Assembly: GCA_000002445.1 (NCBI GenBank)
Contig: AE017150.2
Span: forward strand, 672,001 to 736,000
Reading direction: 5' to 3'
Source: Trypanosoma brucei
Taxonomy: Eukaryota
DNA length: 64,000 nt
Shown here: positions 43,419-61,212 of the stretch, piece by piece
Numbering within the stretch: the stretch's first letter is position 1
How the letters are laid out: each line of letters starts with the position of its first letter
Translations under genes and position numbers: made by a program
Notes under the pieces: model-generated
Databases searched by the model: none
What the model saw: only the letters and a program-made list of their open reading frames with translations
What the model was told of the DNA's origin: nothing

Positions 43419-46013
43419 TTATGTGGTCGCCTTTCGAACTACATCCTCCAACTCACGTTCTTGTTCCTCCAGAGACAAGTTCATACTACTGTAGTACTGA
43501 CCGATAAGACGAAAGACCGTGACATCACCCTTCTCATCGCCTACCACAACAGCAGGGGCATCTTGTTCAGCGAATAGCACCGCGGTGAGGCGTCGCCTGT
43601 CCACATATTGCACACGAGAGGTAGGATGAATGGATTCGGCAATGGACCAAAATTCGACACTTCCTTGTGCACTTACGGTGGCAAAACTTGTAGAGTTTGC
43701 GTAGGACCACGCCACATCCTGCACCGCATCCTGGTTGGGACTGTCAAACGTCAGCACTTGTGCAGATTGACCAAGGCGATAAAGACGAGAACTCCAGTCA
43801 GCCGAACAAGTTAGAAAATAGTTGTCACTGTATGGAGACCACCGCACGCGATACACTAGCTCAGAGTGGGGGGCATAGTCTAGTTCGTAGTTCTCTGTCT
43901 GACTCTTGTTGCATTGATGCACGGAACCATCTTCCGTACCAACTACATACACACTTCCATCAGCTGGACAGACATCAAAGCACATACCACCACATTGCCG
44001 TGAAAAAAGCGCTTCACATCTACGTCGTTGCGTCGGCATTTTCAGACCCGCAGGAGCGCCATCTTTTTTACCATTCAGGACGCCGCTCGACTCAGCGGCG
44101 AACGCAGACTCTGATGCGGCACCGTGCTGCCTCTTGAGGTTCATAAGATCAGGAGCCACACGCTCAATGGTTTTACCGACAGCCCACTGTACAACACGAC
44201 CATCGCCGGATATGGAAAGGAGGAACTCTCCTCGCTCCTTCCGCCGCGCCACCCATTTCAGCTCCCACACCGCCCCAGTGTGCTGACCGCTTGTGAGGGT
44301 GGTTTTGATAGCGGGGATATTTGTGTCCTTTCGTATGTCATAAATAACGATGCGCCCCTCCGTATTTCCGACCGCAAGAAGACTCGGATGCTCGTCGGAA
44401 AAGGCAATGGAGGAAACACCAGCTTCGGAGGAAAGTTGAATAACGCGCTCAGGAGCAAGAGGATTCTTGAGCGACCAGCAACATACAATACCACCATGAA
44501 ACATGTGTGGGGCATCTAACATTTGAGTCTCTTCGTCATGATACGCGCTGTAACCCACAGCAAGAATGTCGGTCTCTTTGCAATTCCACGCCATACAGGT
44601 TACCTCGCGCCGCTTTGTGATGGGCGATCGAAACGTCCATAAGGCCCTCACATCTTCAGGCAACTTCACTGGTGGCACTTCCGCCTTTTGTGCAACTGCT
44701 GCAGCAGAATCGTCGACCCCAGCTGTCTGTTGATCATTCTGCTGCTCTGCTTCTTTATTATCATCCGTAGTTGCAGAGTTCATGTCGTCTGAATCAGGTC
44801 CCATCAGACCTGACGTTGCCGCTTCCTCCTTCCTTACCCGACAAGCTTCTGGATCCATTACTATCCCTCTATAGGAGAGCTGCACCTCTTCCATGGTATT
44901 CTGCACGACTACGCGCTCCATCACGCGCAGGGTTGACATGATCGTGTCCGAAAACATCCACGCCACTGACTGTTGGGATGTACTTGCATTACTAGGATCT
45001 GTTGTGCGCTCGGAACCCGTATCCTTTCCGGTATCCGAGGGGTCCTCAACAAGTTCTACTTCCTCCTCCTCCTCATCCGCGGTTCCCTCTTGGTCTTCGT
45101 CATTTGTATCATTTTCGGCAAAATGCGCAAACGCGTCGCGAAGCATCCACGGTGTGACTTGTAACCCACCAGAATTCTTTTTGGACGGAGGCTGTATGGC
45201 AGAGTGAATAGACTTTTTCGGTGGCGCAAACGTCCAGGAGCCCTTCACCTGAAACCGCGTCCCCTCGTCCACACGTTTTGCCTCAACCAACTCGGCATAC
45301 GCTTTGTTGCGCTCTAAAACTTCGTTTAACTCAGTCGGCCGATCGTTTGGAACTACTTCATCCTGGTGCATGTAGAGCATGATCGTTGGGGTTTCGTGAA
45401 GCACAACAGTTGTTTTTTCCTCTAACCACTCGCGGCGCTGCTCCCGAGTGAGCACCTGCGTCGCGTCGCCGCGGCCGTGACCATCCCACGACGTGTGTGG
45501 CGGCGCGTCAGCCAGCGGACCACTTCCGGCTGCTCGAGCGGAACCGGTGGTTGTGCTCGAGAGGCGGTGATCAATTGAAATACTCGTGAGTGAGGACGAC
45601 GCAGTGAGGAATCCGACTTGAGATTGATTTGCCCCTTCTCCCGTGGATGGAATTGGAACAACATCAGCAGAAGCATTCAAGGCAGATGACTGAAATATGG
45701 AGTTGGAGTCGGGAAGCATTGCTTGACTTACAGACGTCGTTATCTGACCGCTTGTGTTCTGACTAAAGGGGTGACGCGGATCGTGCGGAGCTCCGCTACC
45801 AGCCCTTTGAAGTGGAAGCGGTGTACGGTCAACGCCATTGTCCAGAACGTGAATTGCTGCTTCTACTTCCTTTTTTGAGTCCGTTGAGCGCCGCCTGCCT
45901 TCCCCTTTACCCCGACGGACGTGGGAACCTCTCACCGCGCTACGGTCACTGCCGCCCCGGCGGTGTCCGCCCGTGGTTGACATTTGGTTTCCACTCGAGG
46001 AGCCATTTTTCAT
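43419..46013 (-). CDS. WD40-repeat protein, dynein intermediate chain-like (axonemal inner-arm I1 IC138/IC140 or IFT-dynein WDR60-like class).
   Basis: The ORF extends to 46367, but its first 118 codons (MGYNGGSSLSSSLFFSLLPHLYVF...) read as translated polypyrimidine UTR. The likely start is the ATG at 46011..46013 (MKNGSSSGNQMSTTGGHRRGG). A long disordered S/T/acidic N-terminal half is followed by a C-terminal WD40 block (LAVGYSAYHD, LLAVGNTEGRIVIYDIRKD, HTGAVWELKWV, FLLSISGDGRVVQWAV, YVVGTEDGSVHQC, FLTCSADWSSRLY). That arrangement is the standard dynein-IC layout. Confidence 0.75.
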   Translation of the reverse strand: MKNGSSSGNQMSTTGGHRRGGSDRSAVRGSHVRRGKGEGRRRSTDSKKEVEAAIHVLDNGVDRTPLPLQRAGSGAPHDPRHPFSQNTSGQITTSVSQAMLPDSNSIFQSSALNASADVVPIPSTGEGANQSQVGFLTASSSLTSISIDHRLSSTTTGSARAAGSGPLADAPPHTSWDGHGRGDATQVLTREQRREWLEEKTTVVLHETPTIMLYMHQDEVVPNDRPTELNEVLERNKAYAELVEAKRVDEGTRFQVKGSWTFAPPKKSIHSAIQPPSKKNSGGLQVTPWMLRDAFAHFAENDTNDEDQEGTADEEEEEVELVEDPSDTGKDTGSERTTDPSNASTSQQSVAWMFSDTIMSTLRVMERVVVQNTMEEVQLSYRGIVMDPEACRVRKEEAATSGLMGPDSDDMNSATTDDNKEAEQQNDQQTAGVDDSAAAVAQKAEVPPVKLPEDVRALWTFRSPITKRREVTCMAWNCKETDILAVGYSAYHDEETQMLDAPHMFHGGIVCCWSLKNPLAPERVIQLSSEAGVSSIAFSDEHPSLLAVGNTEGRIVIYDIRKDTNIPAIKTTLTSGQHTGAVWELKWVARRKERGEFLLSISGDGRVVQWAVGKTIERVAPDLMNLKRQHGAASESAFAAESSGVLNGKKDGAPAGLKMPTQRRRCEALFSRQCGGMCFDVCPADGSVYVVGTEDGSVHQCNKSQTENYELDYAPHSELVYRVRWSPYSDNYFLTCSADWSSRLYRLGQSAQVLTFDSPNQDAVQDVAWSYANSTSFATVSAQGSVEFWSIAESIHPTSRVQYVDRRRLTAVLFAEQDAPAVVVGDEKGDVTVFRLIGQYYSSMNLSLEEQERELEDVVRKATT

Positions 46014-46654
46014 ATTTGTACTTACTTTGTTTTCCTTTTTTTGCTTTATCCCCCTCTCCACAGCTTTGCAATATAGGTGTGCGTTTCTGTATTTGCCCTT
46101 CGTGAACTTTAAGTGCAATGCCTCCTTCCACACTGTTGTCCCTCCCAGCTGTATCCTCTCTTTGCTTGTCGGAAACCGTTGAAAGATGCAACGACGTTGA
46201 AAATTACCCGCCCTCCATGATGTAATGAGCGAGAAGAAGGGGAAGAAAGGGCACGAAACAATCGCAAAAAAAAATATAGGTAAAGAAAAAGGTGAAAATA
46301 CATACAAATGCGGTAATAAAGAAAAAAATAAGGAGCTAGACAAAGATGATCCACCATTATACCCCACCGTATTTAAAAATACAGTTTATTTTCAACTTTG
46401 GGTGAGAAAGTGAGAAAACACAACGCAAAAAAGAGAGGAATGTACAGACACAAGCGCAACAGTTCCACAAACGTGACAGTAACCATGGAATCCCATCGCA
46501 AAATTTTCCTCCTCTCTCCTCTTTTTATATGTTCTAACTTCCTCACCCCGCTCGCGTACACTTCCGCTTCCATTTGAATGCTGCGAGCCAACAAGGGAAA
46601 CTTCTCCCGCCAGGAGGCACTACAGGGACGTACCACACATACGTGAAGTATTAG

Positions 46655-47524
46655 TTAACTCGTCGCGAACTCACGTACGGGCTCCACATTATACACTTGA
46701 TCTTCCGGACCAACAAAGGAAGAGATGTCCACGAATTGTACTGGAACCTGGAAATTGGCAAATGAGAATTTCCTCGCCTCATCCAGTGACAGTTCATGTG
46801 AACGACAGCCATGCGTTGCGGCGTTCCTTCGTGATTTGTTACCCGAACCTACGGCAACCCCCGACGCATTTACAATACTCTCGAGCCGCTGCACGCCGCC
46901 GTGGCGGGTGCTCAAGCAGTGCGTTATTTCCTTCTCGAGCAGTTTCTGCACAGCCTTTGCGGAGTAGCTCGTCAGTTCATCACGTTTCGTGCACGCAATC
47001 AACACACTTTCCACGCCGAAAAATTCAGTGGAAGAAAGGACAGCAACTATAAGCTCTGCCACAGCTTCAGCCCCCTCGTGGGGGTCTTGAATAGTGACTG
47101 CGTCAACAACAAACACAACCTTCTTTACTTCTTCAAGAGCTCGCATGAGGGACTCGCGCAGGCGGCGGTGTCCGGGGAAGTCAATAATTGTCACACCACT
47201 TGATTCCGATCCTGCGGTGGGATCCTCATTTTCGGCTGCAGACGCCAGCCGCATCACGCCCCTGTTGGGTTCCATACTTGTGCGCACTTGCACACGTTTT
47301 CGCGCCACCAGCTGCGCAAACAATGTTGTTTTGCCACTACCAGTGAGGCCAACCAACAGCACGGAGCGAGAGCGTCGTCGTGTGGTTCCTCGGACCGCGG
47401 AAAAGAGGGTGGAGATGTAATAGGCAACGAGGAGCGCCACAATGATTGTGACGGCAATTAAAAGCATCTCCACCAGTAGATTTCTGTCCTCGTCTTTGCT
47501 TCCTTTTCTTTTTCGTTTCTCCAC
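46655..47524 (-). CDS. SRPRB: Signal recognition particle receptor beta subunit (SR-beta; Arf-like membrane-anchored GTPase).
   Basis: 289-aa ORF. N-terminal hydrophobic anchor (LLVEMLLIAVTIIVALLVAYYISTLF). P-loop VLLVGLTGSGKTTLFAQLV. DFPGH (G3). CTKRD (NKxD-like G4). Size and topology fit SR-beta. Confidence 0.8.
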   Translation of the reverse strand: MEKRKRKGSKDEDRNLLVEMLLIAVTIIVALLVAYYISTLFSAVRGTTRRRSRSVLLVGLTGSGKTTLFAQLVARKRVQVRTSMEPNRGVMRLASAAENEDPTAGSESSGVTIIDFPGHRRLRESLMRALEEVKKVVFVVDAVTIQDPHEGAEAVAELIVAVLSSTEFFGVESVLIACTKRDELTSYSAKAVQKLLEKEITHCLSTRHGGVQRLESIVNASGVAVGSGNKSRRNAATHGCRSHELSLDEARKFSFANFQVPVQFVDISSFVGPEDQVYNVEPVREFATS

Positions 47525-48003
47525 TCTTCCTCTCTCTACACACTGTTAACAGCCTTTCCTTTTTTTCTTTTCTGTTTCCCTTCTCACCTCTTTTGTGTCA
47601 CACCAAGTTTCTGCGGAGCACCCTCTACTGTTTTTTTCTCTTTGCTTCACGATCGGTGTCTGCTCTTCCCCTTATGCGGTGACGCGTCCGTTATCCGCTT
47701 CACTTAAATGAACAAATAGTTGCGTTATTAATGAAGTAAGTAACACCGATCTAATGAGCTGGTGCAGTATATAAGAAGTGTGTTTTGCCTTTTTTTTCTT
47801 TTTTTAAATATATTTGAAGCAAATTTTGCAAACCAGCCTTTCACAGAAGAATGTGATATATAGAAATGCGGTCCGCGACGAATTGGGGGAAGAACGATGA
47901 AAAGAGAAAAGAAAACGAGAACAGACAACAAACATATGATAGTGTCGAGACAGAAAAAAAGTTATGGATGTCATTAAAATCAAATGAAAGGTTGCACATG
48001 GTG

Positions 48004-48008
<5 letters not shown>

Positions 48009-48046
<38 letters not shown>
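48009..48046. repeat. (CA)19 dinucleotide microsatellite.
   Basis: An uninterrupted run of 19 CA units lies in the SR-beta/MPP-alpha intergenic spacer. Confidence 0.95.
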
Positions 48047-48048
<2 letters not shown>

Positions 48049-48226
48049 TACAAAAGGAAACGACAACCATTTATGGGACACCAGAACTCACCCCACAAAA
48101 TGTTATTCGCACAAAAAAAAATTGTGAAAATATGTAAATTAATAAATCTGACTGAATTCGATGTGAACTTTGTTTTTCTTCCCTTTTTTGTTTTTTATTT
48201 TACGTACGTGTAAGTGAGAACTGATA

Positions 48227-49636
48227 TCAGTTTAGTTTCTCATAAGTTTTGCGAACGGTTTCTTCCAAGGACTCATGTGATGGCATCTTCGTCGTGTCGC
48301 CATACACAGTGAATGTGAGTGGCTTTTTTATCATATCAGCGCAAACACGTTTCAAGTCATCCAATGTTATGTTGCGTGTTCCTTCCATTGTTTCCGTGGC
48401 TGTTATTATGTGATTGTGCACAACCAAGTTGAAACCCATATCAGAGAGGAGTTGTTCTCTCCCCTCACCTAGCAATATGAGCTGCGAGCGGAGTTGATTC
48501 TTCGCCATTTCTAAATGCGTGGGACTAACCCGTTGGCAAATAGACGCCGCTTGATATATCATTACGTTAAGAAGCGATACAACGGCCTGATGGGGGGCAG
48601 TACCATAAAGCCCAAACAATCCGCCGTCACTATACCACGCAGTGATGCATTCTAGCCCATGTAAGAAACCTTCCCTATTAAGCACCTCACGGAACAACTT
48701 TGTCTGCATCCCTTTACCAGGACCACCGGAGCTAAACGATGTGCCCCCGCCAAGAAGTGTTTGAATCACACTTATGTTGTAATAATCCGGGTGGTTGATT
48801 GGTACGCCCTGAAAGAAGAGAGCCACATGACTCAAACTCTTCTCTTGAAACTTATTCACGCTTTCTGGAGCCTCCGTGCGGTGGACCAAACGACTGCCAC
48901 CCGTATAGGGGTAGTAACCGGGTTGCAGCTGCGGCATTGCCTGCACCGCTACGTCTGCATTGTTGAACCGCAACAACTTCTCCACCTCTTCAGCAAACGA
49001 CTTGTGATCGGCCACTCCCGTCGCGGCTAGTACGGTACGCTCTGGACGTGTGCAGGCGCTGTGGAATGCCGTAAATTTCTCCAACGTAAGTTTGTCGAGT
49101 TCTTCCTTTTTTGGATTGAGGGAATGTCCCAGACCTTTACCGTTCCATCCCGCTTCATGGACAAGCTCAAAACATACACTGGTAGCGTCACGATCATATA
49201 ACAATGTTCGCTCGTGTGTTTTCTCCTTTGCAATGCGAAACTCCTCCTCATTTCGCGTGGGGTGGAGGCACATGGCGTTAAGAAGCTCCAACCCATCACG
49301 CTGGTGGTATCGCGGCAGCATGAGAATAACGGAGAGAGCTTCTTTATTATTCGTCACCTTAAAAGCGTTACCGAGGCCACTCAATGCTTGGCTGATCTCA
49401 CGGCTAGTATAAATTTGATTATCACGTAGCGGAAGGGCTTCAAACACCGCAGCAGCACCAGCGTTGTCAGGACTTTCAAACTTGGCACCATTCAGCATAA
49501 AGAGTCCCATACCCGTGACTCCATTACCATCATCGCATGTGAGCACACGCAAACCATTGGTGAGTGTTGAAAGTGAATAATTGTCTTTTATGACTGTTTT
49601 GGCTATGCCTAAACGTGGAATACAATGACGCAGCAT
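48227..49636 (-). CDS. MPPalpha: Mitochondrial processing peptidase alpha subunit (M16 family, non-catalytic).
   Basis: 469-aa ORF. M16 fold starting STLTNGLRVLT. It lacks the HxxEH zinc motif (the corresponding region has no His-x-x-Glu-His). It carries the glycine-rich loop characteristic of MPP-alpha (LLGGGTSFSSGGPGKGMQTKLFREVLN). Confidence 0.85.
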   Translation of the reverse strand: MLRHCIPRLGIAKTVIKDNYSLSTLTNGLRVLTCDDGNGVTGMGLFMLNGAKFESPDNAGAAAVFEALPLRDNQIYTSREISQALSGLGNAFKVTNNKEALSVILMLPRYHQRDGLELLNAMCLHPTRNEEEFRIAKEKTHERTLLYDRDATSVCFELVHEAGWNGKGLGHSLNPKKEELDKLTLEKFTAFHSACTRPERTVLAATGVADHKSFAEEVEKLLRFNNADVAVQAMPQLQPGYYPYTGGSRLVHRTEAPESVNKFQEKSLSHVALFFQGVPINHPDYYNISVIQTLLGGGTSFSSGGPGKGMQTKLFREVLNREGFLHGLECITAWYSDGGLFGLYGTAPHQAVVSLLNVMIYQAASICQRVSPTHLEMAKNQLRSQLILLGEGREQLLSDMGFNLVVHNHIITATETMEGTRNITLDDLKRVCADMIKKPLTFTVYGDTTKMPSHESLEETVRKTYEKLN

Positions 49637-50500: not shown

Positions 50501-52942
50501 TTACGGCCACGTGGAACGAAATGTCTGTTGAGATGACGCCATTTGACGCAGTTCCTCGCAAGGGAGTGGAAACAAGGCATCACCAAAGGTTTTGTTGTAA
50601 ATTCGCATGCGATGCACAACATTCGGAAGACCGAATTTGTCCGCGTAATAACACAGTCCACCCCTCCAAGCAGGGAAACCGTGTCCAAAAGTTGTCGCGA
50701 TATCAATGGCAGATGAACTACTAACCGCCTCCTCACGCAAAAGCATGGCTGCCTCATTCACAGCGGCAAAGAGAATGCGTTCAATCATCTCTTTCCGACT
50801 TATATCACGGCGCATTATCTTTTTCTCACGACACACATCGAGAATCAATAACTCAACATCACGATCCTGATAAGGCCGACGCATAAGCGAGGCTCCTCCT
50901 TTGGACCAAACCCCATACGTGTTCTTCGTGCTATTTGATGCTGAGCCAATCAACCGCTGTCGCCATGCAGCCAAAGACGAAAACAAATCCCCTTCCTCAT
51001 ATGTGTACCAACCCCGCCCTGTCTTTTGTCCAAAATGGCCCATCTCCACCAACCGGCGGTGAATGGTGAAAACATCAGTGGGTGGACAGGGAGAGCGAAC
51101 ACCGCTACATCCCTCTCGAACCCTAAGAGAGTTAAGTATCTGGGACACTACTTGAAGTCCTGCAAGATCCTCCATCGCAAATATGCCTAACCGGAAACCG
51201 AAATGCCTCATCGCGCGGTCGATATCAACAGGAAATGCACCTTGCTCTAACATGGAGAGCGCCTGATAAAGAATCGCAAAGAATATTCGAGAAATAATAC
51301 TGAAGCCAACGTCCCTGGTAAGGATCGTCGCTTTGTGAAATAATCTTCCAACATGAATGGCCCGCTGTAGTGTTGTGTGATCTGTTCGGTACCCCCGTGT
51401 AACTTCAAGGAACGGTACATTATGCACAGGGGGAGCAAAGTACATTCCAACAACCTTTTCTGGCCTTCGTGAAACCTTCACGAACTCCCTGAGTTCGAGC
51501 GAGGAACAACAAGTTGCCAACACACAATGGGGGGGACACAAATCAGTCAACATGGTGAACACCTGCCGTTTAGTGTCCAAATCACCAACAATACACTCCG
51601 CCATGACATCTACATCTTGAAGCACTGTCTGAAGGTCGCCATGATACGGCAAAACTTTCAAATTATTAAGGTACATATTTACACAATCCGCGCTAATATT
51701 GTAACCCAAGGCATCGTTCGGCAGTTCTGACTTTATGACATGAAGCGCATATTCGCACTCATTGTCGTCTTCACCCAAGAGTACCACCTGCGAACCAGCA
51801 CGCAGTGCCATAATGACGATGCCAATGCCAACAACACCGCACCCGACAACAGCCAACTTGCGGAGCCGCTGCTGCTGTAGTCCCGTTCCAGCTCTCACTG
51901 GCAGTGTTGGGAGTGTGTCACTAAGCACAGTGTAGGATGAGCGGAGTAAATGCTGCATTGCATGTGCCTCAGGTGAATGTAGTGTTTGCTTAAATATTCT
52001 CGTCTCCTCTGCAAGACCTTCCTTAAAGGATGCAGAGTTGGTGGCCGCCCGGATTGCCTGCAGGCACTGTAGCGGGGCGCTAACCTCTTTGGGGGCCTTC
52101 TTCGTTATCTCACTTCCCACGCGCCGGAATAAAATAGAATTGTAGAGCATAATGCCCAGCTTCGTCGCATCACAAGAAATGCGTCGCGGTTTGGTCCACC
52201 GCGCGGACAACCGCAGGGCTGCCTCGATGGCACTTTCCAAATTTCCATTCGGATCGGTACAACAGAACGGCCCCTGTGCACTTACTCCATTCACATCTTG
52301 ATCTCGCCTCTCTTCATGGGGTGATGACGTGAGATGATCAATAAGACCTAGACGCAATGCCTCCTTTGCACTCACCTTCCTTCCAGTGCTGATAATGTCG
52401 AGAGCTGCACGCACACCAATCAGCCGCGGCAGTCGCTGCGTCGCTCCACCACACGGCACAATACCCAACTTAACCTCCGGCATACAAAACACGGAAGTGG
52501 GGGAAGCAACCCTATAGTGGGCTGCGAGTGCCAACTCCAAGCCGCCTGAATATGTGATCCCGCTTGTTGCCGCAATAACTACCTTGTCACTTTGTTCTAT
52601 TCTGGTAGTAAGTGACGGCAAGCTGGGGATCCTTACCCCGTTTTCTTTGGTGGTGTCAACCAAGGAGGCAGCAAAATCATTAATATCGATACCACAAGAA
52701 AATGCTCCACCCTCACCGGCGATTATAATACACTTCACAGAGCTATCATTATCGGCCTCGTTGAAAAAGTGTAGAAGCGCGGCCCGCATGTCTACCGTTA
52801 GCGCGTTCAGCAGCTCATGGTGCAATATGAGAACCACCGCATCACCACGGCGCTGCAGATGGCAAAAGCGACGGAAACCAACGTGGCTTGATATGGTTTC
52901 CAAGCGACGCATCTCGTAGCTGTGTATCTTTGCTCTTAACAA
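50501..52942 (-). CDS. Bifunctional fatty-acid beta-oxidation enzyme: enoyl-CoA hydratase/isomerase (crotonase) domain fused to a 3-hydroxyacyl-CoA dehydrogenase domain.
   Basis: 813-aa ORF. Crotonase signature AVVLILHHELLNALTVDMRAALLHFFNEADNDSSVKCIIIAGEGGAFSCGIDINDF and ATSGITYSGGLELALAAHYRVAS. Then a Rossmann NAD motif KLAVVGCGVVGIGIVIMALRAGSQVVLL and the 3HCDH C-terminal domain. The N-terminal RLETISSHV resembles a PTS2 nonapeptide. Confidence 0.9.
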   Translation of the reverse strand: MLRAKIHSYEMRRLETISSHVGFRRFCHLQRRGDAVVLILHHELLNALTVDMRAALLHFFNEADNDSSVKCIIIAGEGGAFSCGIDINDFAASLVDTTKENGVRIPSLPSLTTRIEQSDKVVIAATSGITYSGGLELALAAHYRVASPTSVFCMPEVKLGIVPCGGATQRLPRLIGVRAALDIISTGRKVSAKEALRLGLIDHLTSSPHEERRDQDVNGVSAQGPFCCTDPNGNLESAIEAALRLSARWTKPRRISCDATKLGIMLYNSILFRRVGSEITKKAPKEVSAPLQCLQAIRAATNSASFKEGLAEETRIFKQTLHSPEAHAMQHLLRSSYTVLSDTLPTLPVRAGTGLQQQRLRKLAVVGCGVVGIGIVIMALRAGSQVVLLGEDDNECEYALHVIKSELPNDALGYNISADCVNMYLNNLKVLPYHGDLQTVLQDVDVMAECIVGDLDTKRQVFTMLTDLCPPHCVLATCCSSLELREFVKVSRRPEKVVGMYFAPPVHNVPFLEVTRGYRTDHTTLQRAIHVGRLFHKATILTRDVGFSIISRIFFAILYQALSMLEQGAFPVDIDRAMRHFGFRLGIFAMEDLAGLQVVSQILNSLRVREGCSGVRSPCPPTDVFTIHRRLVEMGHFGQKTGRGWYTYEEGDLFSSLAAWRQRLIGSASNSTKNTYGVWSKGGASLMRRPYQDRDVELLILDVCREKKIMRRDISRKEMIERILFAAVNEAAMLLREEAVSSSSAIDIATTFGHGFPAWRGGLCYYADKFGLPNVVHRMRIYNKTFGDALFPLPCEELRQMASSQQTFRSTWP

Positions 52943-54264
52943 ATAAATGGCAGGAACAGCCAGAAGCGGTGGTCAAAAAATGAGCCGCTACACCCCTCGT
53001 GACACACACACACACAAAAAAAAAAAAGACAGGTGAACATGAAAACCAAATAAAGAACATGTAATCAACCGAAAACAGTACACTACAGAGTCTGACGTAT
53101 CAACGAACTCGGCTTACATTACCAAAAGGAAGAAAAGTACAATGATGTTATGGAATCATTGTGTGGAAGGGTGGCCGCACACACGCGCGAACAAAAAGTT
53201 AAATTTCTACCGCCAATCAACCTCCGATCCCACAGATTTCCGCCCTTCACGTTGCGTCCTTTAAATCCATTGTTTCTCACTAACAACGCGTCATCGTACC
53301 TGCGAGCGATAAAAAAATAAATGTGTAAAATGTCGCCGCCAACTCAAGTCATGATGATGCGTCCACATCATTGATTACTTCTCCACACAATTTTATAATA
53401 TATCTTCCATTCATTAAAGGAATTTAAACTGTCACCGTTTCGATCTCAACACAGAAGTTCCTCGCCCTTCTACCTCCATTACTACCCCCCATCACAAAGC
53501 CACTGCATTTTTCATCATCTCACTATAATACCCTCTTGTCACGCATTTTCACCACTACTGCACCGTCCGAATTCCCTTCGTATTAAACTCACCGGTACCA
53601 GACAGATGGTGGAGAAAATGATAATAACAACAAAAGTTAGGTAACAAAACGACCGAAGAGATGACACTATTTGGGTAAGTCGGTCGGTGAAGGGAGACGG
53701 AACTTCCAACAGCGCGTGACGGAGAGAAATAGGTTGAACTGGAAGATTTAGGACAGCCTTTTCTTGCATCCAACTCTATTTCTGTAAATATGTATATGTT
53801 ATCGCAGGTGCGTGCACCTCAGTGGTAACAGGTTCAGAAAAATGACTGGGTGATATCAATGAACATCAGTACACCAACGTACAACACCAGTAACAACAAT
53901 TAAACAAACAAAGGGAGGTTAGTAGCGAAACTTCACCCATACCGTTTCCAAGGGACATCAACACACTTAGATGGACTTGCAAAGAATTGAAATGATGAAC
54001 ACTATGTCTCCTGCACAGCTCCTTCCACCTGAAACCCCAGTAATATATTGAGGAGTCGAAAGTGGCGGGGGTGGTTGGAGAATGGTGCTTCTCACCTATT
54101 CCCTCCCGCTTTCTTTCCTTTTTAGCCTCCACGGTTATTATCACTTTGTACTTCCCGTGTTGCATCGTACCGGTGGCACAAACAAGGGAGGAAGGAGAAA
54201 ATAGCTCCAGGAGCACCAATCCCGTATCTGAAGATCAAACGCAACTTATCCCCTTCAGTCATCG

Positions 54265-56454
54265 TTAAAAGCGTTTCATTTGTCCATGACCTTGACAAAC
54301 ACGCCAGTCCCAAGGACAGTCGTTCATCAACCCTGGATACAACAGCCCAACTTTTTCCATCTTAACTAAGTCAAATCTCCTCCTCACCTTCTTACCAGGC
54401 ACATCGTCCTTCAATTCGTTACCTCCATGAGGGGAAATACCTGCCGTTGGGGAGTTGACTCCATTTTCGCTTGCATTAGTCTCAGGAGGCAACAAATACG
54501 TATCCAACAGTACCTTCAGTGCTCGACAACCGCTCACCTGAGACATCATTTCTTCCGCGGCATCTAGTTCCAGTAGCTCCGACAAGGCAGCAATTTGTGC
54601 GAATAACACTTGTGCAAACGGGTTGATAGAGGTGGGCGATGCTAAGCATGAAGGTGATGTCGCTGACGGCAGCACAACGCGTTGCCTCTCAAGCTGAAGC
54701 AATAAGCATTTGTGAAGTTGCTTGCGTATATCCTCAACATTATGTATGTGTTCCCGCATAAAGCGAAACAGTGGATAAACATGCAAGGCCGCCCGTGTGC
54801 GTTGTGCTTTGGGGACCAGCAGGTGACCAACCGTCGGTGGCGCCATGCGGACACGCGTTGATCCTGCAGGCCTGGTCGAGCAGCCTGCGTTCGGTTGAAC
54901 TGGTTGATATCCCTTTGTAACAAGCACAATGAACTTACGATACATATCTGTTGCCTCTTCTGTCCCGCCAAGGAGCGCCAGGCTGGGAGCTAAATATATC
55001 AGGCATCTCGGGCTCTCCACCATCAGAACAGAATTAAGGTGAAAAGTCAACAGCTCACGCCACCAGTCGGCACTCCCACACACACCTACTGACCGTTGGC
55101 GTATGAGGTCTTCCGCTAGTCGATGAAAGACAAGATCCGTGCAACTCCGAAGAATATCAAGATAAACCGTTTCCGAAGGACGTATTTCCGACTGTGAAAA
55201 GGAGGGAAGCGTGGAAGAGCCATTTGGGTCCGCACCCCACCCTTGTGTCGGATTTTTATGCTGACCCGCAACCGCTCGCGCTTCGTCGTCATGAGCTTGC
55301 AAAGAAAGCTCGAGGTCCAAGAGCCACTGCAGCACAAACTGAATGAGTTCATTGCGGTACAATAGCATCCTGTTATTCTGCACAAACGTATCGGTAAGAC
55401 GGGCGACACCGGAGGTACGACCACTAATCGATCCACCAAGCGCATCATCTGTACCGGAACGCATGCTTTGGCTGGCATCGCTAAGATCTGCATCGCTACT
55501 CGACAAAAACGGAGCCTTCAGTCCAGTAGAATGTCGTTGCTGTTGAGGATGGCACGCGCTCGGAGAGGCAAAACTCCCAGCATCTGCACTACTCCCATCA
55601 GAGCGACACAGAGATGCATCCCGAGAGGAAGTTTGCTGTGTGTCATACCCGCATCCACCAAGTTTACTTTCTTCCTTGCATCGAGCACTACCATTCGCAC
55701 TATGCCCAAGCATGCTGATCTCTCCACCGCTAAACGGAGAGGCTAGGGGTATATGTGCCTCAAGTGCGAGGTGAAGGAAGAGGGCGATAGAAATCGTGTG
55801 ATGCCTCTTCTCTCCCCACCTCCACCGAGGCACAAGAAAGCGCACACACGTATTCAATACATCCAAAACCACAGTGCCATCATAATTGACCGCCACAGCG
55901 TTTATGAGACGCATGATGGTATCTGCTGGAACCATGCGCTGCGCACCATCCGCCACAGGCGAGCGAATACGGAAAGGTTTCATTGCAACCTCTAACACAC
56001 CACGAACAGCTTGCACGGATTGTTCCATCAGCAGCAAACAAACGCGTTCGAAGCCCACTTTAATTCGATCGTGCCAACGCGTGATCTTCCGCATGTCATG
56101 GCGGTACCCGTCTCGGCTGTACACCTCCAATCCCATAGTTTCCCGTGACTCGAACACCCTCCACCACGGTAGCGTATGAAGCACGCCAAGAACCAAAAGA
56201 CGGAGTTCAGTGAGTGCCCCCTTTGAAAAGTTTTTGTTTTCGATGCATTCCTTCACCCAAACGTAAGCGTCGTCCAGCCACTCACATATTTCGCGGTCCT
56301 TTTGCTCAGCTAGCGATGTACGTCGTAAGATATCGAAAAGGACCTGTTGTTGCGCAGCGAACTCACTCCTGTCTTCACTACGCAACGAAGGAAATGACTC
56401 CCCCTTCTGCGCGGAAAGTGTAGGAGAGTTTGAAAATGAGCGCTCTCGCTTCAT
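54265..56454 (-). CDS. Conserved hypothetical protein (729 aa), predicted largely alpha-helical with a central Ser-rich disordered segment.
   Basis: Long uninterrupted co-oriented ORF with ordinary amino-acid composition. No catalytic or binding motif recognised. It has a central low-complexity S/D/A stretch. Confidence 0.7.
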   Translation of the reverse strand: MKRERSFSNSPTLSAQKGESFPSLRSEDRSEFAAQQQVLFDILRRTSLAEQKDREICEWLDDAYVWVKECIENKNFSKGALTELRLLVLGVLHTLPWWRVFESRETMGLEVYSRDGYRHDMRKITRWHDRIKVGFERVCLLLMEQSVQAVRGVLEVAMKPFRIRSPVADGAQRMVPADTIMRLINAVAVNYDGTVVLDVLNTCVRFLVPRWRWGEKRHHTISIALFLHLALEAHIPLASPFSGGEISMLGHSANGSARCKEESKLGGCGYDTQQTSSRDASLCRSDGSSADAGSFASPSACHPQQQRHSTGLKAPFLSSSDADLSDASQSMRSGTDDALGGSISGRTSGVARLTDTFVQNNRMLLYRNELIQFVLQWLLDLELSLQAHDDEARAVAGQHKNPTQGWGADPNGSSTLPSFSQSEIRPSETVYLDILRSCTDLVFHRLAEDLIRQRSVGVCGSADWWRELLTFHLNSVLMVESPRCLIYLAPSLALLGGTEEATDMYRKFIVLVTKGYQPVQPNAGCSTRPAGSTRVRMAPPTVGHLLVPKAQRTRAALHVYPLFRFMREHIHNVEDIRKQLHKCLLLQLERQRVVLPSATSPSCLASPTSINPFAQVLFAQIAALSELLELDAAEEMMSQVSGCRALKVLLDTYLLPPETNASENGVNSPTAGISPHGGNELKDDVPGKKVRRRFDLVKMEKVGLLYPGLMNDCPWDWRVCQGHGQMKRF

Positions 56455-57161: not shown

Positions 57162-58121
57162 TTATGATATATGTGACAAATGTTCTTCTGTGGCGGGGGT
57201 GGCGGTGGGTCGTTTTGTTTTTCCGTTGACCAAACGAAGATGAGTTTCCAGCGCACTCAAGAACCAATAATGAATTTCATTCACGTCATCAATTCGGCGG
57301 ACGGTTCCTCGGACACACGTCACACCGCCACAGGAATCGACGGGCAACGCCGTTCTTTTTCGGGGTTCAACATTATTTGATGTGGAGGAGATGAAGTCCT
57401 GCATACCCTTCACCACACGACACGCATCCTTTGAAATATCCGCGAAGGTGAGGCGACCCACCACAAACACATAATCATTTTCCTGTACCTCGCAATTGCA
57501 ATCGCATAATTCAGGCCTGTCTTGGAGATCGGAATCACCATAAAGCATTGCTTCTGCCGCTAAAGTTTCTGTTGTGCGGTCATCTTTTCGCAGAGAACGC
57601 GCTCCCTCCCCATGTGGAGCACATGCGCCATGTGCTGCGTTTGTAACATCACATTCATTATTATGTTCTTTTAACTGCGAGTCGTATTGTATCACAGCAA
57701 TCATACCCGTATTATCTGAGACCAACATCGCAGTATAATCTCTAGCTGCATGACTCTCAGCCGTTGTGACTCTCTCACATCTCACAACGCGGCCGCTGAA
57801 ACATATCGCTTCGCACGGGCAACCGTCGATCATGACAGTCGACACACCAACACGTGGCGCGCGGAGCAGTTGTGATAAAAAAACCGGGCGTTGTGGCCGG
57901 TACTTGTGTGGTGCAGACATGTTTCCCGCTGAAATGCCGGTGTTATGGTGGTCGGCGCCATTACCGCTTTTCAACAAAGCTTCCCAATTTCCATGAGAAG
58001 TGGCCATAAAGCAGGGGTCAGTTTTTATATGTGTGGACTGAGCGAAGCGAGTGGCATCACATTGACCAGTGGTGACCTTCTCATTAGGCATATTGAGAAA
58101 ATGAAAGGCCACAGACTTCAT
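57162..58121 (-). CDS. Cys-rich hypothetical protein, possibly OB-fold-containing.
   Basis: The ORF runs to 58310, but its first 63 codons look like UTR-derived hydrophobic/pyrimidine-coded sequence. The likely start is the ATG at 58119..58121 (MKSVAFHFLNMPNEKV...). Several CxC/CxxC clusters (DGCPCEAICFSGRVVRCERV; CDCNCEVQENDYVFVVGRLTFADI). The beta-strand-like alternation is compatible with an OB fold. This is inference only. Confidence 0.55.
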   Translation of the reverse strand: MKSVAFHFLNMPNEKVTTGQCDATRFAQSTHIKTDPCFMATSHGNWEALLKSGNGADHHNTGISAGNMSAPHKYRPQRPVFLSQLLRAPRVGVSTVMIDGCPCEAICFSGRVVRCERVTTAESHAARDYTAMLVSDNTGMIAVIQYDSQLKEHNNECDVTNAAHGACAPHGEGARSLRKDDRTTETLAAEAMLYGDSDLQDRPELCDCNCEVQENDYVFVVGRLTFADISKDACRVVKGMQDFISSTSNNVEPRKRTALPVDSCGGVTCVRGTVRRIDDVNEIHYWFLSALETHLRLVNGKTKRPTATPATEEHLSHIS

Positions 58122-58704
58122 GATTATGTGTCTTTGTACTTGTACTTGACATATCGGCATACAAACCGCGTTAATTGATACGGTGTATATCAAAAAAAAA
58201 AGAGAGAGAAGAAAGTCGATGGACACGTGATTTAGTACTTGTGGCATTAGCATATCTAACACCACCATATACTTGGTGAAAAAGTTAACAGGTGCGAGGA
58301 GAACAAACAATGCATACGAAGGTTTCTCTCTTCAGGCACATAAGCACACTGATAAAGACTAACAGTGCATCAGTTGTATTGATAGCGCCGGTGGCAGAGT
58401 ACGTCTGACAAGTGGTGAGACGGAAGGAAGAAGGGGGGAAAGCTGCGTATCATCAAAATATATGAAATAAAGTGAACGGGCGCGGTCCACAATTTGGCAC
58501 GCAGTTCCGGGTATAATGAGTTAGCTCAAATGAGCAAGCACCCTTTGTTAGGAAGGTGACACATCAATAAAGGGGGGGGGAACAAGCGAAAGTGCAAATC
58601 GCCCTCTTACGTCCTCTTCAGATTATCTATCATTTCTATAGACCAAAAACAACAGCAACAAAAAAAAAATAATAATAATAATATATCATTTATACCATCC
58701 TCCG

Positions 58705-61212
58705 CTACGATGCAGAGGGACTTGTACGGGTGTGGAGGGGTTTTAAATGCAACGACACGGGGAACTGTGTTATCGGTACATCTCTCACGACAGAAGTCCT
58801 TCCCTGTATCCCTTCCTTTTTTCCACCATCGCTGGTACGAGCCGAATCACCATAATTCATCCTTCGCACCTTTTCAGTTTCCTCCTCATCGCCCTCCCGA
58901 CCGTCGCGTTCCTCTTCACTGGTGATTGTATCTGAAGAACGTGCCGACTGACCTAATTGACATTCAATAGGCCGACTATAAAACCAATTCTGCGCTTGTC
59001 TCATTAATATCACCATTTCATCGGCAAAAAACAATGACTTCTGCACGGTTATCTCTACACAATTTTGAACCATAGAGCGGTGCAGTTGGTGCATAGAAGA
59101 GAGATGGTTGGCCAAAATTGAGTTCATTCTGTGTGAAAGAATTACCTCGGACATATGATCCGTCGCCTTTTCGAGAACAGCTATTTGTGCGTTGCTCTCG
59201 CGCAGGGCCCTTTCCGCCTCACCGCGGCGCTGTATTTCTTTGCGCAGCCGCTTCATCAACTCCTCCCGCGAGAGAGCGGCAAACTCAATCATGCCATTGT
59301 CAACCGTATGTAGGCAAAAAGGTAAGTCATTGCTCATTGTCAGAATGCTTTCTTGTTCCTTCCTCGTTTGAGCCATCTGCAGTTGGCCGTCACCTGAATC
59401 TCTTAAAACACTCGGGCTTGTGGCAGTCACCGCCCGCTCCCTGAAGGTACCAGACACTTCGTGAGGGTATATTGTCAACCGCGGGACTTTGTCCAGTTTT
59501 CCCTCGAAGTACTGCATGAGAATATTATCCGCGTCTTTTCCACCACATAAAAATACACTAGGTTGTACCCCTTCTTTATTTTCCATGTTTTTAGGATATA
59601 CATTCGTGGCAGTCGCAGCCGTGACTGCCTTGCCTTCACCACTATCTCCGTCCGAATGGCAGCGCGTACCGTCCGCTGTTGCGGAACTCGCCGACACCAA
59701 GACGTCATGATTATGGATTCTCTTTAATCGATATGTCACCGCACGCTCGATCATTTTATCCAACGCCCTACTGCCGCGTTCTCGAGCCTCCGCAACGAGT
59801 TCCTGACGCCGCTTTTCATGTTCCTGCACAAGTTGCCCATCCTGCGGTGTGGCAACAATTAACGTGTCCTTCCTACATTGTCTGGAGTCCAACAAGGGGG
59901 ATAAACGCTCATTGGGATGAAGTGACGTACTACGTGATGTCACAGCACCCAATTCTGGAATAGTCCACTGGTGCTCGCTGATGACAGCGTGCCCGTATGT
60001 GCTGTGCTCATGGTCATCAACACCATTACCGCCATTTGGTGGAGGACCTTCCACAGCATTCTTATGGGACAAACCAGTGTAACCGAGCATATGCAATTGC
60101 TTTCTCAGCCACTCTAGTTCTCTTTCATAAAGGTGACGTTCCTCCAAATCCGAGGGTGTTTTAATAGAACCTCGAACGTTTCCATCACATGAGGCGTGGC
60201 CCTCCACCCTTACGTACGATTCAACCATTCCAATCATTCGTTGAAGAATACTGACACGGGTTTCCAGCGGACATTCTGCAAAAGTTTCCGCCCCTTCATT
60301 ATCCAACTTGGCTTCTGACGCGAGAAAATGTATGAGAGACTTATATGACCTCAAAAAGCAAATAAACAACGGTGTCCGGGCTGCTGCCATTCGGTTCCCC
60401 TCATTGGCTATGCGCAACACCTCTTCGTATGGCGCATTGAGTAGAGAATCACATACGTCGCCACACCTCCTACATAAGGTAAGGAGCGAGATGGTGGTGG
60501 AGTGTGTTGTACTTCTATCGTTTGCTTGCAATAGATGCGGTCGTGCACGTGCTACGATGGGGCGCCTAAAGATATTTGGTGCATTTAACCATCCAAGCGC
60601 ATTACTGCACGGCGCCCCGCACAGCCAACATGAGTATGATGACGACGATGATGATGATATATTGGTAGGGAATGACCCGTTCACCTCGTCCCCACCGTTA
60701 CCTGCGTGAGGACTCCACTCCATTGTCGTAAGATGTTTGATTTCTTCATTTAGTCCATCGATACTTGCACTCGCATTATCCAACTCAATACTCTCCGCCA
60801 TAGTTCTGTGACTGCGAAGGATGTGCGTGAGACGCTCCTCAATGGCGGAACTGCCATTGTGTCGATCCCCCTTTCCACTGAACGAATTACCTCCATACGC
60901 GGAAGCTTCATCACACCTGCCGACGTGGTCACTTTTATCACTAATCACAACGTTTCGTTTGGAAGTTCCGTGCGTGCAGGTAATTGTGCGCGGGGATCCG
61001 CTCCTCGGTAGGAGATGACGCAGCGGCGTGCCCACGGGTTGCTGCATGATGGAACTCACACCATCAAATGAATTCTCGCTGATGAAACCTTGAGTTGTTG
61101 TCTCCTTGCCTTGGTGAGGTGGAACTGCAGCCTTCCACGCGATGAATGGGCTGAAGGCTTGAGTTAATTCCTGATACATTTGCTCCACGTCATTATTCGG
61201 TGTGGAGCTCAT
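58705..61212 (-). CDS. Conserved hypothetical protein (835 aa) with coiled-coil segments and a C-terminal acidic tail.
   Basis: Long co-oriented ORF. Predicted coiled-coil stretch ELMKRLRKEIQRRGEAERALRESNAQIAVLEKA. Cys cluster CWLCGAPCSNALGWL...CRRCGDVCDS. Acidic tail EEERDGREGDEEETEK. No defined domain recognised. Confidence 0.7.
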   Translation of the reverse strand: MSSTPNNDVEQMYQELTQAFSPFIAWKAAVPPHQGKETTTQGFISENSFDGVSSIMQQPVGTPLRHLLPRSGSPRTITCTHGTSKRNVVISDKSDHVGRCDEASAYGGNSFSGKGDRHNGSSAIEERLTHILRSHRTMAESIELDNASASIDGLNEEIKHLTTMEWSPHAGNGGDEVNGSFPTNISSSSSSSYSCWLCGAPCSNALGWLNAPNIFRRPIVARARPHLLQANDRSTTHSTTISLLTLCRRCGDVCDSLLNAPYEEVLRIANEGNRMAAARTPLFICFLRSYKSLIHFLASEAKLDNEGAETFAECPLETRVSILQRMIGMVESYVRVEGHASCDGNVRGSIKTPSDLEERHLYERELEWLRKQLHMLGYTGLSHKNAVEGPPPNGGNGVDDHEHSTYGHAVISEHQWTIPELGAVTSRSTSLHPNERLSPLLDSRQCRKDTLIVATPQDGQLVQEHEKRRQELVAEARERGSRALDKMIERAVTYRLKRIHNHDVLVSASSATADGTRCHSDGDSGEGKAVTAATATNVYPKNMENKEGVQPSVFLCGGKDADNILMQYFEGKLDKVPRLTIYPHEVSGTFRERAVTATSPSVLRDSGDGQLQMAQTRKEQESILTMSNDLPFCLHTVDNGMIEFAALSREELMKRLRKEIQRRGEAERALRESNAQIAVLEKATDHMSEVILSHRMNSILANHLSSMHQLHRSMVQNCVEITVQKSLFFADEMVILMRQAQNWFYSRPIECQLGQSARSSDTITSEEERDGREGDEEETEKVRRMNYGDSARTSDGGKKEGIQGRTSVVRDVPITQFPVSLHLKPLHTRTSPSAS

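What the first reader, a model, noticed from the sequence alone, without database searches (positions are those of the whole stretch)
52883..52909. PTS2-like nonapeptide at the N-terminus of the enoyl-CoA hydratase/3-hydroxyacyl-CoA dehydrogenase
Residues 12-20 of the ORF read R-L-E-T-I-S-S-H-V. That is R-L-x5-H-V, one position off the glycosomal/peroxisomal PTS2 consensus [RK]-[LVIQ]-x2-[LVIH]-[LSGA]-x-[HQ]-[LAF]. The C-terminus (...RSTWP) has no PTS1. Beta-oxidation multifunctional enzymes are peroxisomal in many eukaryotes, so a glycosomal location through a slightly non-canonical PTS2 would be biologically coherent. Alternatively the Arg-rich N-terminus could be a mitochondrial presequence.
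Basis: partly seen in the sequence, partly recalled or inferred. Interest (0 to 1): 0.5.

Follow-up and report, generated by a model that had tools for sequence, protein, structure and literature searches.

The report
Known glycosome-import signal on TFEα1
The nine-residue motif RLETISSHV at the start of this Trypanosoma brucei fatty-acid-oxidation enzyme is real and conserved, but it was already published as the signal (PTS2) that sends the enzyme into glycosomes, so the finding is correct but not new.

Summary
The window is Trypanosoma brucei chromosome 2. The ORF is Tb927.2.4130 (TFEα1, UniProt Q586V7), 803 aa from the first in-frame ATG at 52912 on the minus strand.

The nonapeptide R-L-E-T-I-S-S-H-V exists, but it is residues 3-11 (window 52880..52906), not 12-20.

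The motif differs from the strict PTS2 consensus [RK][LVI]x5[HQ][LAF] only at position 9 (Val). It fits the relaxed consensus used for trypanosomatids.

On its own the motif is weak: 0.2-2.6 % chance per protein, and 4 of 49 long ORFs in this window match a relaxed form. The strength comes from 17 orthologues. Positions 1, 5, 8 and 9 are conserved in all 17 and position 2 in 16 of 17, while positions 3, 4 and 6 vary freely.

There is no PTS1 (C-terminus TWP).

Allmann et al. 2014 name exactly 'PTS2, RLETISSHV'. The protein is in the high-confidence glycosome proteome, and it drops 3.2-fold from the organelle fraction on PEX14 knockdown. Mitochondrial evidence is prediction only.

Direct PEX7 dependence and sufficiency of the peptide remain untested.

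Verdict: supported, already known.

Side note: the catalytic His of the dehydrogenase half is Tyr in T. brucei.

The parts
50501..52912 (-). Coding sequence of TFEα1 (Tb927.2.4130): enoyl-CoA hydratase/isomerase plus 3-hydroxyacyl-CoA dehydrogenase, 803 aa plus the stop codon at 50501..50503
   Evidence: ORF listing. First in-frame ATG at 52912. 100 % identical to P0001 = XP_951619.1/Q586V7 on a 1,193,948-bp contig. Pfam ECH_1, ECH_2, 3HCDH_N and 3HCDH.
52880..52906 (-). PTS2 nonapeptide R3-L-E-T-I-S-S-H-V11 (CGC TTG GAA ACC ATA TCA AGC CAC GTT)
   Evidence: Coordinates and translation. Conserved at the PTS2-defining positions in 17 orthologues. Named as the PTS2 in PMC4262433.
52847..52912 (-). 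N-terminal extension (about residues 1-22) that precedes the crotonase fold and is absent from bacterial homologues. It carries the PTS2 and is Arg-rich (6 R, 2 acidic in the first 24 residues)
   Evidence: Alignment with bacterial homologues and frog peroxisomal bifunctional enzyme. AlphaFold model: helix 2-14, pLDDT below 50 for residues 1-8, first strand of the fold at 17-22. Charge count.
52325..52822 (-). Enoyl-CoA hydratase/isomerase (crotonase) domain, residues 31-196. The catalytic Glu126 and Glu146 are kept
   Evidence: Pfam PF00378, E = 7.8e-36. Alignment columns.
51311..51859 (-). 3-hydroxyacyl-CoA dehydrogenase NAD-binding domain, residues 352-534
   Evidence: Pfam PF02737, E = 3.6e-34.
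51440..51442 (-). Codon of Tyr491, which occupies the position of the catalytic His of the dehydrogenase (human HAD His158, rat MFE1 His431)
   Evidence: Alignments. Role of the His taken from PMC10988713. Tyr is present in all four named T. brucei-clade sequences.
50999..51298 (-). 3-hydroxyacyl-CoA dehydrogenase C-terminal domain, residues 539-638
   Evidence: Pfam PF00725, E = 9.6e-25.
50504..50512 (-). C-terminal tripeptide T-W-P: no PTS1
   Evidence: Translation. The 'PTS1 according to PSORT II' column is blank for this protein in PMC5436138 Suppl. Data 10. Orthologue C-termini (WP, WQ, WK, FP and others) are also not PTS1-like.
52996..53029 (-). Pyrimidine-rich tract (T12, a GT repeat, then C) followed by the first AG (52997/52996). 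Inferred trans-splice acceptor, giving a 5' UTR of about 85 nt in which I saw no ATG
   Evidence: Sequence read directly. The function is inferred from the usual trypanosomatid arrangement and was not tested.

Best explanation
Residues 3-11 (RLETISSHV) of T. brucei TFEα1 are a functional type-2 peroxisomal targeting signal. After synthesis in the cytosol, the N-terminal extension forms a short amphipathic helix. This helix presents Arg3, Leu4, Ile7, His10 and Val11 on one face. The PTS2 receptor PEX7, with its PEX5 co-receptor, binds that face. The complex docks at PEX14/PEX13 on the glycosome membrane and the folded enzyme is carried into the matrix. Shown: the motif, its position, its conservation, glycosomal location of the protein, and PEX14 dependence. 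Inferred: that this peptide, rather than another feature, is what is recognised, and that PEX7 is the receptor.
For: The motif sits at residues 3-11 of the ATG-initiated protein. It matches [RK][LVI]x5[HQ] with a hydrophobic residue at position 5, and departs from the strict consensus only by Val at position 9. It matches the trypanosomatid search pattern [RKHQ][VLIWFY]x5[HKQR][ILVYAF] (PMC7082770). Across 17 orthologues down to about 30-35 % identity: position 1 is R in 17/17; position 2 is L/V/I in 16 and A in 1; position 5 is I/L/V in 17/17; position 8 is H in 14 and Q in 3; position 9 is V 8, L 7, M 1, I 1. Positions 3, 4 and 6 vary freely. Bacterial homologues lack the extension. The five key residues fall within a 120-degree arc of a helical wheel, and AlphaFold predicts a helix at 2-14 ahead of the fold. 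There is no PTS1. Published evidence: the motif is named as PTS2 and the protein was found in glycosome fractions (PMC4262433). The protein is in the high-confidence glycosomal reference set, and falls to 0.31-fold (log2 -1.69, p = 0.004) in the organelle pellet after PEX14 RNAi (PMC5436138). T. cruzi orthologues were found in purified glycosomes with PTS2 RVDTILSHV (PMC7082770). The enzyme is listed as a PTS2 protein across kinetoplastids (PMC7237986; PMC9512073).
Against: I found no experiment showing that the nonapeptide is necessary or sufficient, or that import needs PEX7. PEX14 serves both PTS1 and PTS2 routes and would also be needed for piggy-back import. Val at position 9 lies outside the strict consensus. 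The relaxed motif is common by chance. The AlphaFold confidence for residues 1-8 is low (below 50), so the helix is only suggestive. TargetP predicts a mitochondrial presequence and MitoProt gives 0.41.
Confidence: 0.85

Rival explanations
1. The Arg-rich N-terminus (MRRLETISSHVGFRRFCHLQRRG) is a mitochondrial presequence, either alone or overlapping the PTS2. The protein would then be mitochondrial or dually targeted. This could compensate for the loss of the mitochondrial TFEα2 gene in African trypanosomes.
For: There are six Arg in the first 24 residues. TargetP is positive and MitoProt gives 0.41. African trypanosomes lack TFEα2 (PMC4262433). The likely partner SCP2-thiolase carries both a mitochondrial signal and a PTS2 and is mitochondrial in procyclic cells (PMC9512073).
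Against: MitoFates is negative. In the reference table of PMC5436138, the gene is marked in none of the experimental mitochondrial proteome columns; it is marked only for the TriTrypDB term and TargetP. The protein is in the high-confidence glycosome proteome and is PEX14-dependent. Glu5 sits inside the would-be presequence. The extra Arg residues are not conserved in orthologues (MQR, MNR, MSR, MER, MHR), whereas the PTS2 positions are. ATOM40-knockdown values for this protein could not be read because the stored files were cut.
Confidence: 0.08
2. The motif is a chance match. The enzyme reaches glycosomes by piggy-backing on a partner that carries its own signal, or through an unrecognised internal signal.
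For: Relaxed PTS2 patterns are frequent: 1.35-3.9 % of random N-termini and 4 of 49 long ORFs in this window. Piggy-back import is documented in trypanosome glycosomes (title and abstract of PMC8262884, listed). PEX14 dependence does not discriminate between the routes.
Against: A chance match would not keep exactly the PTS2-defining positions, at the same distance from Met1, across 17 orthologues while the x positions drift. The extension carrying it is absent from bacterial relatives.
Confidence: 0.04
3. The conserved N-terminal helix serves the enzyme itself (folding, oligomerisation or substrate channel) rather than targeting.
For: Within Trypanosoma the segment after the motif (G12, R14, C17, H18) is also invariant.
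Against: Bacterial and animal homologues with the same fold do without it. AlphaFold places residues 1-8 at low confidence, ahead of the first strand of the fold at residues 17-22. The pattern of which positions are conserved is that of a PTS2, not of a buried helix.
Confidence: 0.03

Closest known systems
PTS2 of T. brucei TFEα1 itself (Tb927.2.4130), as published by Opperdoes & Szikora 2006 (cited in PMC4262433) and Allmann et al. 2014 (PMC4262433)
   Same: It is the identical sequence. The paper prints 'PTS2, RLETISSHV' and reports the protein in glycosome fractions. The window ORF is 100 % identical to Q586V7, the UniProt entry given for this gene.
   Different: Nothing differs.
PTS2 of the T. 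cruzi orthologues (Tc00.1047053507547.40 and Tc00.1047053508441.70), RVDTILSHV, found in purified glycosomes (PMC7082770)
   Same: Same position (residues 3-11), same Val at position 9, and the same enzyme.
   Different: Four of nine residues differ (positions 2, 3, 6 and 7). T. cruzi also has a separate mitochondrial TFEα2, which T. brucei lacks.
Canonical PTS2 nonapeptides [RK]-[LVI]-x5-[HQ]-[LAF] of thiolase and other peroxisomal enzymes (Petriv 2004; Kunze 2011, as summarised in PMC7710942)
   Same: An N-terminal nonapeptide with basic, aliphatic, middle hydrophobic, His/Gln and hydrophobic positions.
   Different: Val at position 9. The same RLx5HV variant is noted as a likely functional form in stramenopiles (PMC7710942). 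In plants and animals the PTS2 presequence is cleaved after import; whether that happens here is unknown.
Peroxisomal multifunctional enzyme type 1 of animals (rat MFE1/EHHADH, PDB 2X58, 3ZW8) and Arabidopsis MFP2 (2WTB)
   Same: Same two-part architecture and family; these are among the best solved matches, E = 1e-80 and 1.5e-77. They are peroxisomal beta-oxidation enzymes.
   Different: Animal MFE1 uses a C-terminal PTS1 (the frog homologue ends in NKL), whereas the trypanosomatid enzyme uses an N-terminal PTS2. The T. brucei protein has Tyr in place of the catalytic His431.

Membership tests
PTS2 (peroxisomal targeting signal type 2) | Nonapeptide matching the strict consensus [RK]-[LVI]-x5-[HQ]-[LAF] (or Petriv's [RK][LVIQ]xx[LVIHQ][LSGAK]x[HQ][LAF]) | tested here: not met
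   Eight of nine positions fit. Position 9 is Val. Two of the 17 orthologues (T. grayi RVQTIASQL, Leptomonas RIDNISSHL) meet the Petriv pattern in full.
PTS2 (peroxisomal targeting signal type 2) | Match to the relaxed consensus used for trypanosomatids, [RKHQ][VLIWFY]x5[HKQR][ILVYAF], with a hydrophobic residue at position 5 | tested here: met
   RLETISSHV fits, with Ile at position 5.
PTS2 (peroxisomal targeting signal type 2) | Located close to the N-terminus (within about the first 20-40 residues) | tested here: met
   Residues 3-11 from the first in-frame ATG.
PTS2 (peroxisomal targeting signal type 2) | Conserved in sequence and position in orthologues (the criterion of PMC7237986: at least 75 % of kinetoplastid species) | tested here: met
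   17 of 17 orthologues, starting at residue 3-6.
PTS2 (peroxisomal targeting signal type 2) | Forms an exposed amphipathic helix | tested here: inconclusive
   AlphaFold gives a helix at 2-14 ahead of the fold, but pLDDT is below 50 for residues 1-8. On a helical wheel the key residues fall within 120 degrees.
PTS2 (peroxisomal targeting signal type 2) | Protein resides in the peroxisome/glycosome and needs the import machinery | not testable with these tools
   Published evidence says yes: high-confidence glycosome proteome, and PEX14 RNAi fold change 0.31 with p = 0.004 (PMC4262433, PMC5436138).
PTS2 (peroxisomal targeting signal type 2) | Binding to or dependence on PEX7; necessity and sufficiency of the peptide | not testable with these tools
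   No such experiment for this protein was found in the papers searched.
PTS1 | C-terminal tripeptide of the SKL type | tested here: not met
   The C-terminus is T-W-P. The PSORT II PTS1 column is blank.
Mitochondrial N-terminal presequence | Predicted presequence and presence in mitochondrial proteomes | tested here: inconclusive
   Published predictors disagree: TargetP positive, MitoFates negative, MitoProt 0.41. No experimental mitochondrial proteome column is marked. No predictor was run here.
[quoted passage not shown] | Crotonase domain followed by HAD domains | tested here: met
   Pfam PF00378, PF02737 and PF00725. Best solved matches are MFE1-type enzymes.
[quoted passage not shown] | Hydratase catalytic glutamate pair | tested here: met
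   Glu126 is invariant and Glu146 nearly invariant in the 37-sequence alignment, and both are present in T. brucei. That these two columns are the catalytic pair rests on my recollection of rat MFE1 (Glu103, Glu123); it was not checked against a paper here.
[quoted passage not shown] | Dehydrogenase catalytic His-Glu pair (HsHAD His158/Glu170, RnMFE1 His431/Glu443) | tested here: not met
   The His position is Tyr491 and the Glu is kept as Glu503.

The most novel reading that the evidence does not exclude
In African trypanosomes the PTS2 delivers to glycosomes a TFEα1 whose dehydrogenase half can no longer catalyse the reaction. The proton-accepting His is Tyr in the T. brucei clade and Phe in a second salivarian-like sequence, and it has been replaced independently in several other trypanosomatid lineages. 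The imported protein would then be a hydratase/isomerase-only enzyme or a pseudoenzyme. This would explain why the knockout leaves 3-hydroxyacyl-CoA dehydrogenase activity, growth and lipid turnover unchanged. A less likely further possibility is that the Arg-enriched N-terminus of the T. brucei protein also gives partial mitochondrial targeting.
Probability: 0.4. Interest if true: 0.4.

Novelty: already known. Interest (0 to 1): 0.12.

Why it matters
Confirming the signal adds nothing new. The PTS2 of TFEα1 has been predicted since 2006, was printed verbatim in 2014, and is supported by glycosome proteomics and PEX14-knockdown proteomics. It remains a useful example of a PTS2 with Val at position 9 that is conserved across trypanosomatids, and of a beta-oxidation enzyme that uses PTS2 where animals use PTS1. 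The open question of real interest is what the protein does once inside. The knockout has no phenotype, and the sequence shows that the catalytic His of the dehydrogenase is missing in T. brucei.

Tried and rejected
(1) Two word-indexed protein searches, one with a single sequence and one with an 8-sequence profile, returned only Trypanosoma orthologues and then bacterial FadB-like proteins. No Leishmaniinae appeared, because the 8000-candidate prefilter was saturated. The exhaustive representative search supplied the wider set. No Leishmania sequence proper was obtained; Leptomonas pyrrhocoris stands in for that subfamily.

(2) The TrypTag paper's stored supplements hold no entry for Tb927.2.4130, so no microscopy evidence could be added.

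(3) ATOM40-knockdown values for the protein could not be read, because those supplementary files were cut when stored.

(4) An apparent loss of the Rossmann beta2 acidic residue (Gly380) was rejected as evidence. Glu381 follows immediately, so a one-residue shift would restore it.

(5) Replacement of the Asn of the GFxGNR motif by Thr or Ser in all Trypanosoma sequences was not counted as inactivating. As I recall it, the PROSITE signature for this family allows Thr there.

(6) The internal loose matches RIFKQTLHS (305), RISCDATKL (244) and KVSRRPEKV (479) were dismissed because they lie inside folded domains.

(7) A conserved Cys17 downstream of the PTS2 was considered as a possible processing site, as in plant and animal PTS2 proteins. 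It is confined to Trypanosoma and absent from other trypanosomatid orthologues, so it was not pursued.
Full report
WHAT IS AT THE COORDINATES. The finding lies at the 5' end of a long minus-strand ORF (50501..52942 in a bacterial-style listing that starts at a TTG). Every ORF of 250 aa or more outside a repeat-like stretch at about 40.1-42.2 kb is on the minus strand, as expected for a trypanosomatid polycistronic unit. The first in-frame ATG is 52912..52910. Upstream of it lie a T12/(GT)n pyrimidine-rich tract and the first AG at 52997/52996, and I saw no ATG in between.

Translation from this ATG gives 803 aa beginning MRRLETISSHVGFRRFCHLQRRGD and ending FRSTWP. This product is 100 % identical to XP_951619.1/UniProt Q586V7 on a 1,193,948-bp contig. 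Q586V7 is the UniProt entry given for Tb927.2.4130 in PMC5436138. The published probe primer for that gene, ATGCGTCGCTTGGAAACCATATC (PMC4262433), matches the window from 52912 downward. The next gene downstream (48227..49636) is an M16 peptidase, which fits Tb927.2.4110, the mitochondrial processing peptidase alpha subunit listed just before Tb927.2.4130 in the table quoted. The window is therefore T. brucei chromosome 2, and the ORF is TFEα1.

CHECK OF THE OBSERVATION. The peptide RLETISSHV is present, but it is residues 3-11 (window 52880..52906).

Taken alone the motif is weak evidence. Random N-termini of this composition match R[LVI]x5[HQ]x in 2.6 % of trials, [RK][LVI]x5[HQ][LAIVF] in 1.35 %, and the six-position form with V/I allowed at position 9 in 0.18 %. 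Four of the 49 ATG-ORFs of at least 100 aa in this window match a relaxed form near their start.

CONSERVATION. Seven named or unnamed Trypanosoma orthologues have the motif at residues 3-11:
- T. grayi: RVQTIASQL
- T. cruzi: RVDTILSHV
- T. theileri: RVETLASHV
- T. melophagium: RVETIASHV
- T. rangeli: RVDTICSHM
- T. conorhini: RVDTICSHV
- an unnamed salivarian-like sequence: RVETISSHV

An exhaustive profile search added more distant representatives:
- Leptomonas pyrrhocoris: RIDNISSHL
- Strigomonas culicis: RAKLLYSHL
- six unnamed assemblies: RVEVLSQQV, RLTTIESHL, RLTVLRDHL, RVHVIESHL, RVDQLCSHL, RLEVVAKQI
- the euglenid Petalomonas cantuscygni: RLAVVQSHV

Over the 17 sequences:
- position 1 is Arg in all;
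- position 2 is L/V/I in 16 and Ala in one;
- position 5 is I/L/V in all;
- position 8 is His in 14 and Gln in 3;
- position 9 is V (8), L (7), M (1) or I (1);
- positions 3, 4 and 6 vary freely.

This is the PTS2 signature, not general N-terminal conservation. Bacterial homologues start about 14 residues later, directly at the first strand of the crotonase fold. The T. brucei-clade sequences (four named, full length) all carry RLETISSHV, and T. cruzi strains carry RVDTILSHV or RVDKILSHV.

STRUCTURE. An AlphaFold model built on a 37-sequence alignment has mean pLDDT 86 and pTM 0.87. It predicts a helix at residues 2-14 before the first strand (17-22), with pLDDT below 50 for residues 1-8. On a helical wheel Arg3, Leu4, Ile7, His10 and Val11 fall within a 120-degree arc. 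This agrees with an exposed amphipathic helix, the form in which PTS2 peptides are understood to be recognised (established knowledge). The low confidence makes it only suggestive.

WHAT IS PUBLISHED.
- Allmann et al. [quoted passage not shown] They say it was found enriched in glycosomal fractions (Guther et al. 2014) and has a MitoProt score of 0.41. They also report that all trypanosomatid TFEα1 isoforms contain a PTS2, and that African trypanosomes lack the mitochondrial TFEα2. [quoted passage not shown]
- Peikert et al. 2017 (PMC5436138) place the gene in their glycosomal reference set. They measure a fold change of 0.309 (mean log2 -1.69, p = 0.0041, 15 peptides) in the organelle pellet after PEX14 RNAi, with no PSORT II PTS1. 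The same paper lists the gene in its mitochondrial reference set. That listing rests only on a TriTrypDB text term and TargetP, without MitoFates support and without any experimental mitochondrial proteome column.
- Acosta et al. 2019 (PMC7082770) found both T. cruzi alleles in purified glycosomes, 'both containing a PTS2 (RVDTILSHV)'.
- Durrani et al. 2020 (PMC7237986) and Andrade-Alviarez et al. 2022 (PMC9512073) list the enzyme as a PTS2 protein in most kinetoplastids, with PTS1 in diplonemids, euglenids and Naegleria.

I found no test of PEX7 dependence, and no test of necessity or sufficiency of the peptide, for this protein. TrypTag data were not retrievable.

MECHANISM AND RIVALS. The best explanation (0.85) is a working PTS2. 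It would be recognised by PEX7 with PEX5 as co-receptor, and imported through the PEX14/PEX13 docking complex. Shown: the motif, its position, its conservation, glycosomal residence and PEX14 dependence. Inferred: recognition of this particular peptide, and the identity of the receptor.

The rivals are weaker:
- A mitochondrial or dual signal (0.08) rests on prediction only, and the extra arginines are not conserved.
- A chance motif with piggy-back import (0.04) is contradicted by the position-specific conservation.
- A purely structural role for the helix (0.03) is contradicted by its absence from homologues of the same fold.

COMPARISON AND NOVELTY. This is not merely like a known case; it is the known case. 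Novelty: already known. Interest is low.

NOTICED IN PASSING. In the dehydrogenase half, the catalytic His is Tyr491 in T. brucei (GMYFAPP against GxHFFSP). This is the proton acceptor, His158 in human HAD and His431 in rat MFE1, anchored by Glu170/Glu443 (PMC10988713). The partner Glu503 is kept, at the same 12-residue spacing. A direct alignment to rat MFE1 confirms the equivalence. All four named T. brucei-clade sequences have Tyr, and the salivarian-like P0008 has Phe. The six stercorarian and other Trypanosoma species keep His. Among more distant trypanosomatid representatives the position is Asn, Tyr or Ser in three and His in the rest. The hydratase glutamates are retained.

This fits the knockout result that TFEα1 does not encode the measured dehydrogenase activity. 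The words 'catalytic', 'histidine' and 'active site' do not occur in that paper. It suggests a hydratase-only enzyme or pseudoenzyme in African trypanosomes, but it was followed up only by alignment.

Noticed in passing
window 51440..51442 (minus strand), codon 491 of the same gene: The catalytic His of the 3-hydroxyacyl-CoA dehydrogenase domain (human HAD His158, rat MFE1 His431) is Tyr in T. brucei (GMYFAPP), while the partner Glu503 is kept. It is Phe in a second salivarian-like sequence and His in T. cruzi, grayi, theileri, melophagium, rangeli and conorhini. It has also been replaced (Asn, Tyr, Ser) in three other trypanosomatid representatives, including Leptomonas pyrrhocoris. This may explain why the TFEα1 knockout leaves dehydrogenase activity unchanged. 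The knockout paper does not use the words 'catalytic', 'histidine' or 'active site'.
   Followed up: partly
P0159 (Petalomonas cantuscygni transcript, eukprot), residues 6-14: The euglenid orthologue carries a PTS2-like RLAVVQSHV near its N-terminus and ends in ...GERIQ, with no PTS1. The 2022 review says the trifunctional enzyme has a PTS1 in euglenids.
   Followed up: no
P0147 (Leptomonas pyrrhocoris XP_015662769.1): [quoted passage not shown] The name is probably misleading.
   Followed up: no
P0297, P0299, P0305 (T. cruzi gene models of 845, 809 and 851 aa): Some T. cruzi strain annotations start the gene 17-58 codons upstream. That would put the PTS2 at residues 20-61 instead of 3-11. These are probably start-codon miscalls.
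   Followed up: no
window 52862..52864 (Cys17) and 52859..52861 (His18), minus strand: Cys17-His18, six residues after the PTS2, are invariant in all eight Trypanosoma sequences but absent from other trypanosomatid orthologues. In plants and animals the PTS2 presequence is cleaved next to a conserved Cys; whether any processing occurs here is unknown.
   Followed up: no
window 38848..42594, both strands: Long ORFs overlap in several frames and on both strands (1248 aa and 646 aa on the minus strand; 691 aa and 661 aa on the plus strand). This suggests a repetitive or compositionally biased coding region.
   Followed up: no
window 43419..49636, minus strand: The downstream neighbours are a mitochondrial-processing-peptidase-like M16 protein (48227..49636), an SRP receptor beta subunit (46655..47524) and a WD40 protein (43419..46367). 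The three upstream ORFs (54265..56454, 57162..58310, 58705..61212) have no Pfam match.
   Followed up: partly
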